Assembly (NCBI RefSeq): GCF_003334385.1
Contig: NZ_QOWN01000025.1
Length of the DNA: 64,000 bases
Source of the DNA: Escherichia coli
GTDB taxonomy: Bacteria; Pseudomonadota; Gammaproteobacteria; Enterobacterales; Enterobacteriaceae
Direction: 5' to 3' (one strand)
In this document: positions 33,546-33,745 of the stretch, piece after piece
Layout of the letters: each line of letters opens with the position of its first letter
How positions within the stretch are numbered: the first letter of the stretch is position 1
Notes under the pieces: generated by a model
Seen by the model: the letters and a program-made list of their open reading frames with translations, nothing else
Database searches by the model: none
What the model was told of the DNA's origin: nothing
Program-made: the position numbers and the translations under genes

Positions 33546-33745
33546 GCCGGATGCGACGCTTGCCGCATCTTATCCAGCCTACGGGATTGCACATGTAGGG
33601 CGGATAAGGCGTTCACGCCGCATCCGCCAGTGGCGCGGTGCAATTGCCGGATGCGACGCTTGCCGCGTCTTATCCAGCCTACGGGATTGCACATGTAGGG
33701 CGGATAAGGCGTTTACGCCGCATCCGCCAATAAATAACAACTAAC
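33546..33745. repeat. tandem BIME: two copies of a 100-bp unit, each with two inverted REPs
   Basis: unit starting GCCGGATGCGACGCTTGCCGC... recurs at 33546 and 33646 with 2 substitutions; fills the eutG-eutH spacer. Confidence 0.7.

What the first reader, a model, noticed from the sequence alone, without database searches (positions are those of the whole stretch)
33546..33745. Tandem duplication of a 100-bp BIME inside the eut operon
A 100-bp unit beginning GCCGGATGCGACGCTTGCCGC recurs at 33546 and 33646 with only two substitutions. It fills the whole eutG-eutH spacer in the middle of a long polycistronic operon. Stable REP stem-loops at this position could block 3'-5' decay of upstream mRNA or partly terminate transcription, uncoupling shell and enzyme gene expression from the downstream eutHABCLKR genes. 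Copy number at such tandem BIMEs often varies between strains.
Basis: partly seen in the sequence, partly recalled or inferred. Interest (0 to 1): 0.3.

Follow-up and report, generated by a model that had tools for sequence, protein, structure and literature searches.

The report
Variable REP/BIME array between eutG and eutH
The repeat is real, but it is an ordinary and already catalogued E. coli REP/BIME element (REP178): four hairpin-forming palindromes between two genes of the ethanolamine operon, whose unit number differs between strains as is usual for such elements.

Summary
A unit with a 100-bp period occurs at 33546 and 33646, with two substitutions over 84 nt. The second copy lacks the 16-17-nt linker, so there are about 1.85 copies. 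Each unit is a z2-like palindromic unit (37 nt), a 12-nt linker and an inverted y unit (34 nt); a 17-nt linker joins the units. The array starts 2 nt after the eutG stop and ends 31 nt before the eutH ATG. It corresponds to REP178 of MG1655 and has the same 100-bp layout as REP325 (yjdM-yjdN) and an array at ygjK-fadH. Two systematic samples of 59 complete E. coli genomes gave about 41% with 2 units, 32% with 1, 7% with a degenerate single unit (O157:H7), 15% with 3-5, and 5% with a different dispersed repeat. Other Escherichia species carry 1 to about 5.5 units. Several Citrobacter, Yokenella and Pluralibacter genomes have a bare 27-32-nt spacer, while Salmonella, Klebsiella and other Citrobacter carry their own REPs there. 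No promoter or intrinsic terminator lies in the spacer. It cannot be strong termination, because eutBC and eutR lie downstream. Verdict: already known, low interest.

The parts
32356..33543 (+). eutG coding sequence (ethanol dehydrogenase); stop codon TAA at 33541-33543
   Evidence: RefSeq annotation of identical sequence. The ORF list shows 32329-33543. The annotated length of 1188 nt gives a start at 32356.
33546..33582 (+). PU1: z2-like palindromic unit in iREP orientation (GCCGGATG...CCTAC), 37 nt, starting 2 nt after the eutG stop
   Evidence: Motif parse. The RNA hairpin is -10.8 kcal/mol, weakened by A at 33567 and by the CCAGCC variant.
33583..33594 (+). 12-nt head-to-head linker GGGATTGCACAT
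   Evidence: The same linker type occurs in the ygjK-fadH array.
33595..33628 (+). PU2: y-type palindromic unit in REP orientation (GTAGGGCGGATAAGG...), 34 nt
   Evidence: The RNA hairpin is -20.9 kcal/mol, z = -5.2.
33629..33645 (+). 17-nt tail-to-tail inter-unit linker AGTGGCGCGGTGCAATT
   Evidence: This junction type is found in 4913 of 5426 E. coli genomes, median 2 places per genome, including other loci.
33646..33682 (+). PU3: z2-like palindromic unit (iREP orientation), 37 nt
   Evidence: The RNA hairpin is -16.6 kcal/mol, z = -4.0.
33683..33694 (+). 12-nt head-to-head linker, second copy
33695..33728 (+). PU4: y-type palindromic unit (REP orientation), 34 nt
   Evidence: The RNA hairpin is -20.9 kcal/mol.
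33598..33679 (+). Rfam naRNA4 (RF02564) match, covering the y-linker-z2 pair that spans the junction between units
   Evidence: 71.8 bits against a gathering score of 59.5. Absent in 1-unit strains, three hits in a 5-unit strain, six hits in REP325.
33729..33759 (+). A-rich, repeat-free eutH leader with the Shine-Dalgarno sequence (AATAAATAACAACTAACAGGGAGTAAAGGCG); conserved in every E. coli allele, whatever fills the rest of the spacer
33760..34986 (+). eutH coding sequence (ethanolamine permease)

Best explanation
The feature is the E. coli repetitive element catalogued as REP178. It is a BIME-2-type array of four REP palindromic units, arranged as two 100-bp units of [z2-like iREP, 12 nt, y REP] joined by a 17-nt linker, and it sits between the eutG stop codon and the eutH ribosome-binding site.

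Shown here: its anatomy; its kinship with REP325 and with an array at ygjK-fadH; its extragenic position; the variation in unit number (1-5 in E. coli, up to about 5.5 in other Escherichia species); the replacement or decay of the element in some lineages; and its absence from several related genera.

Inferred origin: a mobile BIME unit inserted into an originally bare spacer of about 30 nt. The array then expanded and contracted locally, either by unequal recombination or slippage between 100-bp direct repeats, or by TnpA-REP-mediated amplification.

Inferred function, by analogy only: the array is co-transcribed within the eut polycistron, because the spacer has no promoter or intrinsic terminator. 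It folds into four stable hairpins. These most likely give a modest, copy-number-dependent polarity by shielding the upstream eutS-eutG mRNA segment from 3'-5' exonucleases and mildly attenuating read-through into eutH-eutR. Because the first hairpin begins 2 nt after the stop codon, it may also lower EutG translation.

The element is not an essential or strong regulator. My confidence that it is a BIME-2-type array is above 0.95. My confidence that it has any measurable regulatory effect is about 0.4-0.5.
For: Anatomy. Hairpin energies are -10.8, -20.9, -16.6 and -20.9 kcal/mol; the whole spacer folds at -101.7 kcal/mol, z = -3.65.

Identity: REP178 is listed at MG1655 2568140-2568322, between eutG and eutH, which maps to window 33545-33727. 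REP325 has the same 100-bp period and alternating y/z2 layout. The Rfam naRNA4 model, which represents the Y-l-Z2 unit of REP325, scores 71.8 bits against a gathering score of 59.5. An array with the same linkers lies at ygjK-fadH. The BIME-2 definition and its known copy-number variability come from PMC3333891.

Variation: spacers of 99, 116, 169, 216, 316, 415 and 515 nt were found. Two samples of 59 genomes gave concordant proportions.

Ancestral bare spacer and genus-specific REPs.

No promoter or terminator signal in the spacer.

Functional analogy: REP325 stabilises yjdM mRNA and attenuates yjdN. REP-containing tandem gene pairs show a higher upstream/downstream expression ratio (median log ratio 0.96 against -0.09). 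REPs less than 16 nt from a stop codon lower translation (Liang 2015, as cited in PMC12306157).
Against: There are no expression data for this locus. In the REP325 study, 2- and 4-hairpin fragments showed no detectable Rho dependence, so a 2-unit array may attenuate little.

The only Rho-related peaks listed near REP178 in that study's supplement are on the strand antisense to eut.

The element appears dispensable. It is reduced to a single intact palindrome in O157:H7, replaced by an unrelated repeat in about 5% of E. coli, and absent in several Citrobacter species.

The z2-like units in this window carry stem-weakening substitutions.

eutBC and eutR lie downstream and must be expressed.
Confidence: 0.7

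Rival explanations
1. The array is a neutral or selfish repeat. A non-autonomous mobile BIME landed in a permissive spot just after a stop codon, and it expands and contracts with no measurable effect on eut expression.
For: There is presence/absence and copy-number polymorphism. The element has decayed in O157:H7. An unrelated dispersed repeat replaces it in about 5% of genomes. Related species with eut operons have a bare 27-32-nt spacer. The z2-like units in this window carry stem-weakening substitutions. Short REP325 fragments show no Rho dependence.
Against: Genome-wide, REP-containing tandem gene pairs show upstream-biased expression. Four hairpins of -11 to -21 kcal/mol within an mRNA are unlikely to be wholly inert. 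The same spacer is occupied by REPs in at least four genera.
Confidence: 0.3
2. The array acts at the level of translation. Because the first hairpin starts 2 nt after the eutG stop codon, terminating ribosomes stall, the mRNA is cleaved, and EutG output drops (the stop-proximal REP mechanism of Liang, Rudd and Deutscher 2015). This is not exclusive of the best explanation.
For: The distance from the stop codon to the REP is 2 nt. The published rule is an effect only when the distance is less than 16 nt. REPs also abut the stop codon (2-5 nt) in Salmonella diarizonae and Citrobacter alleles.
Against: This was not tested here. The first hairpin in this window is the weakest of the four (-10.8 kcal/mol).
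Confidence: 0.2
3. The array acts at the DNA level. It is a BIME-2 DNA gyrase (or Pol I) binding and cleavage site that relieves transcription-driven supercoiling within a 17-gene operon.
For: BIME-2 elements are reported as gyrase targets and topological insulators (the introduction and references of PMC3333891). The array has BIME-2 layout.
Against: This cannot be tested from sequence. The element is dispensable in many lineages.
Confidence: 0.1
4. The array is a source of a nucleoid-associated RNA like naRNA4, which acts with HU to condense the chromosome.
For: The Rfam naRNA4 model scores above its gathering threshold at 33598-33679. The original naRNA4 model is described in PMC4550694.
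Against: The Rfam model matches any y-linker-z2 junction. It also hits another BIME in the window (8810-8886), and it gives no hit in 1-unit strains. The 2026 preprint reports that REP325 and naRNA4 do not measurably compact the nucleoid.
Confidence: 0.03
5. The array is an intrinsic (Rho-independent) terminator that ends a eutS-eutG transcript.
For: It contains stable GC-rich hairpins.
Against: No hairpin in the spacer is followed by a T-run, and the terminator scan found nothing there. Genes downstream are essential to the pathway.
Confidence: 0.02
6. The 66-codon ORF at 33544-33744, which spans the array, encodes a small protein.
For: An ATG directly follows the eutG stop codon, and the frame stays open to 33744.
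Against: The 100-bp period is not a multiple of three, so alleles with 1, 3, 4 or 5 units shift the reading frame. None of the eight RefSeq loci inspected annotates a CDS there. The sequence is made entirely of REP consensus.
Confidence: 0.01

Closest known systems
REP325, the BIME-2 array between yjdM and yjdN in E. coli K-12 (source of naRNA1-6)
   Same: Both have an exact 100-bp period and alternate a 34-nt y unit with a 36-37-nt z2-type unit in opposite orientations. Both lie between two co-oriented genes of one operon, and both are matched by the same Rfam model.
   Different: REP325 has 6 units (12 palindromes); this window has 2 (4 palindromes). The linker sequences and lengths differ (13 + 17 nt in REP325, 17 + 12 nt here). 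The z-type unit here has a GCCGGAT/ATCC(A/G)GC foot in place of GCCTGAT/ATCAGGC. The Rfam score is lower here (71.8 bits against 95-111). The regulatory effects of REP325 were measured; those of this array were not.
The BIME array in the ygjK-fadH spacer of E. coli
   Same: It has the same z37-12-y34-17 unit and near-identical linkers (GGAATTGCACAT and AGTGGCGCGGTGCAGAT), and it is also tandem.
   Different: It lies in a different genomic context. Only one strain was inspected.
The malE-malF REP pair, the classical case of mRNA protection by REPs
   Same: REP hairpins lie in a spacer inside an operon, downstream of a gene whose transcript segment could be protected from 3' exonucleases.
   Different: The mal case has experimental support and an obvious need for unequal stoichiometry between the two gene products. 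No such data or need is established for eutG against eutH.

Membership tests
REP/BIME-2 (Gilson/Bachellier nomenclature, as summarised in PMC3333891) | Imperfect palindromes 30-40 nt long, with a conserved GTAG (or CTAC) tetranucleotide at the foot | tested here: met
   There are four units of 37, 34, 37 and 34 nt. CTAC ends PU1 and PU3; GTAG starts PU2 and PU4. Each folds as a hairpin with an internal mismatch.
REP/BIME-2 (Gilson/Bachellier nomenclature, as summarised in PMC3333891) | REP and inverted REP paired across a short linker, not the long IHF-binding L linker of BIME-1 | tested here: met
   The head-to-head linker is 12 nt and the tail-to-tail linker is 17 nt.
REP/BIME-2 (Gilson/Bachellier nomenclature, as summarised in PMC3333891) | Built from y and z2 unit types | tested here: inconclusive
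   The y unit matches the y unit of REP325 apart from one compensated stem pair. The other unit has the z2 upper stem and length but a GCCGGAT foot in place of GCCTGAT. The Rfam Y-l-Z2 model scores above its gathering threshold. The published consensus figure was not available, so 'atypical BIME' cannot be excluded.
REP/BIME-2 (Gilson/Bachellier nomenclature, as summarised in PMC3333891) | Occurs as tandem copies whose number varies between strains at a given locus | tested here: met
   1, 2, 3, 4 and 5 units were found in E. coli genomes, and up to about 5.5 in other Escherichia species.
REP/BIME-2 (Gilson/Bachellier nomenclature, as summarised in PMC3333891) | Extragenic, and dispersed at many loci in the genome | tested here: met
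   The array lies between the eutG stop codon and the eutH start codon. The 100-nt unit matches a median of 6 places per genome. The junction motif occurs at other loci, including ygjK-fadH.
REP/BIME-2 (Gilson/Bachellier nomenclature, as summarised in PMC3333891) | Bound and cleaved by DNA gyrase; cleaved and recombined by TnpA-REP | not testable with these tools
   These are biochemical properties, known only from the literature.
Rfam RF02564 naRNA4 | Covariance-model score at or above the gathering threshold | tested here: met
   71.8 bits against 59.5 at 33598-33679 on the + strand. The model also hits other BIME junctions, so a hit shows BIME-2 junction layout, not a distinct gene.
Rfam RF02564 naRNA4 | A discrete RNA of about 77 nt that binds HU and affects the nucleoid | not testable with these tools
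   No expression data were available. The nucleoid role is disputed for REP325 itself.
Stop-proximal translation-regulating REPs (Liang, Rudd and Deutscher 2015) | REP hairpin begins fewer than 16 nt after the stop codon of the upstream gene | tested here: met
   The distance is 2 nt. The rule is taken from PMC12306157.
Stop-proximal translation-regulating REPs (Liang, Rudd and Deutscher 2015) | Ribosome stalling, tmRNA tagging and reduced protein output | not testable with these tools
   This requires experiment.
Intrinsic terminator | GC-rich hairpin followed directly by a run of T | tested here: not met
   The scan found no site in 33544-33759. PU4 is followed by AATAAATAACAAC.

The most novel reading that the evidence does not exclude
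The number of units in the eutG-eutH BIME array could act as a heritable, strain-specific dial. It would set the ratio of the proximal half of the ethanolamine operon (eutS-eutG) to the distal half (eutH-eutR, including the lyase and the autoregulatory activator), and so tune the induction threshold or microcompartment stoichiometry. If so, the repeated and apparently independent occupation of this one spacer by genus-specific REPs in Escherichia, Salmonella, Citrobacter and Klebsiella would reflect selection for a structured element after eutG, not mere tolerance of insertions.
Probability: 0.12. Interest if true: 0.45.

Novelty: already known. Interest (0 to 1): 0.15.

Why it matters
It matters little in itself. 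REP/BIME arrays, their tandem form and their strain-to-strain copy-number variation are long established, and this element already has a catalogue name (REP178).

The locus could still serve as a natural allelic series for testing how hairpin number affects polarity inside a long operon. Natural alleles carry 0 units (a different repeat fills the spacer), a degenerate single unit, or 1, 2, 3, 4 or 5 units. All sit in a gut-relevant, inducible pathway whose activator is encoded at the distal end of the operon.

Tried and rejected
1. Intrinsic terminator or internal promoter in the spacer: the scans found none.
2. A coding role for the 66-codon ORF over the array: rejected, because the 100-bp period breaks the reading frame in alleles with other unit numbers, and no RefSeq record annotates it.
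3. A specific naRNA4 gene: rejected as an identity, because the Rfam model hits any y-linker-z2 junction and disappears in 1-unit alleles.
4. Literature specific to a REP in the eut operon: three searches found nothing beyond a supplement table entry.
5. Liang et al. 2015 and Gilson et al. 1991 could not be retrieved. Their content is cited second-hand or marked as my own knowledge.
6. An upstream/downstream read-count comparison for eutG and eutH from the REP325 preprint's supplement: the two values seen appeared to come from different result tables and uninduced cells, so I did not use them.
7. The Rho-related peaks near REP178 in that supplement are on the strand antisense to eut. They say nothing about sense-strand termination. 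The table header was not seen, so I read those rows cautiously.

Full report
**Observation.** The sequence between the eutG stop codon (TAA, 33541-33543) and the eutH start codon (ATG, 33760) is 216 nt long. The repeat finder reports two 88-nt copies, 33542-33629 and 33642-33729, 97% identical and spaced 100 nt apart. Tandem Repeats Finder reports period 100, 1.9 copies, 97% matches and no indels.

It gives 13 differences in the last 16 nt, where copy 1 carries the inter-unit linker and copy 2 runs into the eutH leader. The second copy is 84-88 nt, not 100. The array occupies 33546-33728, not the whole spacer.

**Anatomy.** A motif parse gives this layout:
- 2 nt
- 37-nt palindromic unit in GCCGGATG...CCTAC orientation
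- 12 nt (GGGATTGCACAT)
- 34-nt unit in GTAGGGCGGATAAGG... orientation
- 17 nt (AGTGGCGCGGTGCAATT)
- the same 37-12-34 block again
- 31 nt of A-rich leader carrying the eutH Shine-Dalgarno sequence

As RNA on the eut sense strand, the four units fold alone at -10.8, -20.9, -16.6 and -20.9 kcal/mol. The whole spacer folds at -101.7 kcal/mol, z = -3.65. Alternative long hairpins between neighbouring inverted units are about as stable as the individual hairpins.

The two z-type units in this window share a CCAGCC variant that unpairs one stem position. PU1 also has A at 33567, which accounts for its weaker hairpin. The scans found no sigma-70-like promoter or intrinsic-terminator-like site in the spacer. 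The last hairpin is followed by AATAAATAACAAC, not a T-run.

**Identity.** A supplement table of a 2026 preprint lists 'REP178, Tandem, 2568322-2568140, eutG | eutH' for MG1655. Using the alignment of the window to MG1655, this maps to window 33545-33727. The element is therefore already catalogued.

The best-studied BIME-2 array is REP325, between yjdM and yjdN. It has the same exact 100-bp period and the same alternation of a 34-nt y unit and a 36-nt z2 unit. Its linkers differ: 13 and 17 nt, against 17 and 12 nt here. The y unit here differs from that of REP325 by a compensated stem pair. The z-type unit here has the z2 upper stem but a GCCGGAT foot.

The Rfam model naRNA4 (RF02564) represents the 77-nt Y-l-Z2 unit of REP325. 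It scores 71.8 bits against a gathering score of 59.5 at 33598-33679, which is the pair that spans the inter-unit junction. The same model:
- hits another BIME in the window (8810-8886, 92.7 bits);
- gives six hits in REP325;
- gives three hits in a 5-unit eut allele;
- gives none in 1-unit alleles.

A hit therefore marks BIME-2 junction architecture, not a specific gene. The 100-nt unit matches a median of 6 places per E. coli genome. The junction motif is present in 4913 of 5426 genomes at a median of 2 places. One of those places is a tandem array with the same unit and linkers between ygjK and fadH.

Ton-Hoang et al. define BIME-2 as z2 plus y units, in multiple tandem copies, with short linkers.

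**Variation within E. coli.** I ran two searches against 5,426 complete genomes. Each listed 59 chromosomes taken at even steps down the ranking, and the length of the matched span gives the unit number.

| Allele | Sample 1 | Sample 2 |
|---|---|---|
| 2 units | 25 | 24 |
| 1 unit | 18 | 19 |
| Shorter, degenerate allele | 4 | 4 |
| Different spacer | 3 | 3 |
| 3 or more units | 9 | 9 (3 units: 2; 4 units: 1; 5 units: 6) |

Eight fetched loci confirmed the alleles. Their spacers were 116, 99, 169, 316, 316, 515, 415 and 216 nt.

- The O157:H7 allele has lost the 5' half of the z-type unit, so only the y unit is recognisable.
- The 169-nt allele carries no REP at all. It has a different repeat of about 138 nt, which is itself dispersed at a median of 6 places per genome.
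- All alleles keep the same 31-nt eutH leader.
- One genome whose flanks are K-12-like (99.6% identical) has 1 unit instead of 2 (H15). Changes therefore occur between close relatives.
- The CCAGCC variant is shared by all units in the K-12-like and B-strain arrays and is absent from the other arrays. This points to recent expansion or homogenisation within lineages.

RefSeq complete genomes are a biased sample of the species, so these proportions are only indicative.

**Other species.** Fifty-one loci encoding EutH relatives were fetched from species-representative genomes. I extracted the spacer after eutG from each.

- Other Escherichia species carry the same array with 1 unit (E. whittamii), 3 units (sp. 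E1V33), about 4.5 units (MOD1-EC7003) and about 5.5 units (SCPM-O-B-8794).
- Several Citrobacter genomes have a bare 27-nt spacer (sp. FP75, On2M, Cu233, MGH106, C. braakii, C. amalonaticus S646). Yokenella and a Pluralibacter MAG have 32 nt.
- Other Citrobacter species carry a tail-to-tail REP pair (119-123 nt) or a single REP (60 nt).
- Salmonella enterica subsp. diarizonae carries one REP, 2 nt after the stop codon (67-nt spacer).
- Klebsiella species carry Klebsiella-type REPs (170-216 nt).
- Morganella, Buttiauxella, Hafnia and relatives have spacers of about 34-48 nt without REPs (the lengths listed for those whose EutH match begins at residue 18 include the first 51 nt of eutH). Their EutG tail is only about 55% identical to the E. 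coli one.

Orientation, number and type of the palindromes differ between genera, and bare spacers occur inside Citrobacter. The simplest reading is an ancestral spacer of about 30 nt that was colonised, and sometimes cleared, several times.

**Mechanism.** Some points are shown here: the array lies inside a co-oriented run of genes with no promoter or terminator signal of its own, so eutH and the genes after it depend on read-through. The rest is inference from other systems.

- Harris et al. (bioRxiv 2026) report that deleting REP325 lowers yjdM mRNA and raises yjdN about ten-fold, with partial Rho dependence.
- They also report that 146 REP-containing tandem gene pairs have a higher upstream/downstream expression ratio than control pairs.
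- In their hands, however, 2- and 4-hairpin fragments showed no detectable bicyclomycin response.
- The only Rho-related peaks they list near REP178 are on the strand antisense to eut.
- REPs that begin fewer than 16 nt after a stop codon are reported to lower translation of the upstream gene (Liang et al. 2015, as cited in PMC12306157). Here the distance is 2 nt.

Strong termination can be excluded on logic. The lyase genes eutBC, the shell genes eutL and eutK, and the activator eutR all lie downstream, and operon expression requires EutR (PMC3045373).

My best estimate is a modest polarity that depends on context and unit number, favouring eutS-eutG over eutH-eutR, possibly with reduced EutG translation. 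A purely neutral element remains a serious rival, given how freely the array is lost, degraded or replaced.

**Comparison and verdict.** The element meets the tested criteria for REP/BIME-2: palindromes with GTAG/CTAC, short linkers, tandem copies that vary in number, and extragenic, dispersed distribution. The exact y/z2 typing of one unit is unresolved, and the biochemical criteria are untestable here. It is an already known element of an already known kind. Its mechanism is a reasonable analogy but is unproven for this locus. The locus-specific facts added here are the allele spectrum, the replacement by another repeat, and the bare spacer in related genera. These are minor. Interest is low.

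Noticed in passing
window 36364-36386 (eutA-eutB junction): The window is 99.9-99.99% identical to MG1655 (in reverse orientation) but lacks the 6.8-kb CPZ-55 cryptic prophage that splits the eut operon between eutA and eutB in K-12. The two alignment blocks overlap by 23 nt at the junction. The eut operon here is therefore intact, unlike in MG1655.
   Followed up: partly
L004:1798-1935 (E. coli AR_0015, eutG-eutH spacer): In about 5% of sampled E. coli genomes, the BIME is replaced at the same position by an unrelated G-rich repeat of about 138 nt (…CCCCTCGCCCCTTTGGGGAGAGGGTTAGGGTGAGGGG…). That repeat is itself dispersed at a median of 6 places per genome. It may belong to a named minor repeat family (RSA or boxC, from memory); I did not test this.
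   Followed up: partly
L003:1799-1897 (E. coli O157:H7 strain 4276): O157:H7 genomes, and at least one non-O157 strain (APEC37), carry a 99-nt spacer in which the 5' half of the z-type unit is deleted and several stem positions are mutated. Only one recognisable palindrome remains.
   Followed up: partly
window 8810-8886: A second BIME-2-type y-linker-z2 pair in the window scores 92.7 bits with the Rfam naRNA4 model, higher than the eut junction.
   Followed up: no
window 56467-56509 (- strand): Rfam match to the ES036 (CssrF) sRNA family: 40.9 bits against a gathering score of 37.6. REP-like motifs lie nearby, at 55471 and 56543.
   Followed up: no
L043-L047, L049, L055, L056, L036-L039, L045 (eutG-eutH spacers of Morganella, Klebsiella sp. 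BIGb0407, Buttiauxella, Pluralibacter gergoviae): These REP-free spacers of about 45 nt all contain a small GC hairpin (GCCTG-N4-5-CAGGC or GCCTGC-NN-GCAGGC) just upstream of the eutH ribosome-binding site. A structured element after eutG may therefore predate the REPs.
   Followed up: no
L062:538-822 (E. coli N779, ygjK-fadH spacer): A three-unit tandem array with the same 37-12-34-17 unit and near-identical linkers to the eut array. This indicates a sub-family of 100-bp BIME units present at several loci.
   Followed up: partly
window 33777-33795: A 19-nt near-perfect palindrome (CATCATGTACATCATGATG) lies inside the first codons of eutH (…IIMYIMM…). The repeat finder and the terminator scan both flagged it, on both strands. 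It is probably a by-product of the peptide sequence.
   Followed up: no
window 33666-33811, - strand (MG1655 2568056-2568201, + strand): The supplement of the 2026 REP325 preprint lists a peak from a Rho-related in vitro screen that overlaps REP178 by 61 nt, on the strand antisense to eut. A second peak lies inside eutG, also antisense. I did not see the table header.
   Followed up: partly
L010 and L015: A MAG labelled Citrobacter sp. (HRGM_Genome_0066) carries an eutG-eutH region about 99% identical at protein level to the E. coli one, with the 1-unit Escherichia BIME. This suggests mislabelling or contamination. An uncultured Pseudocitrobacter MAG carries an Escherichia-type y-linker-z junction in its spacer.
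   Followed up: no
L061:643-1299 compared with window 33546-33728: REP325 and the eut array both have a period of exactly 100 bp, although they reach it with different unit and linker lengths (34+13+36+17 against 37+12+34+17). This may be coincidence, or it may reflect a constraint on BIME-2 unit length.
   Followed up: no
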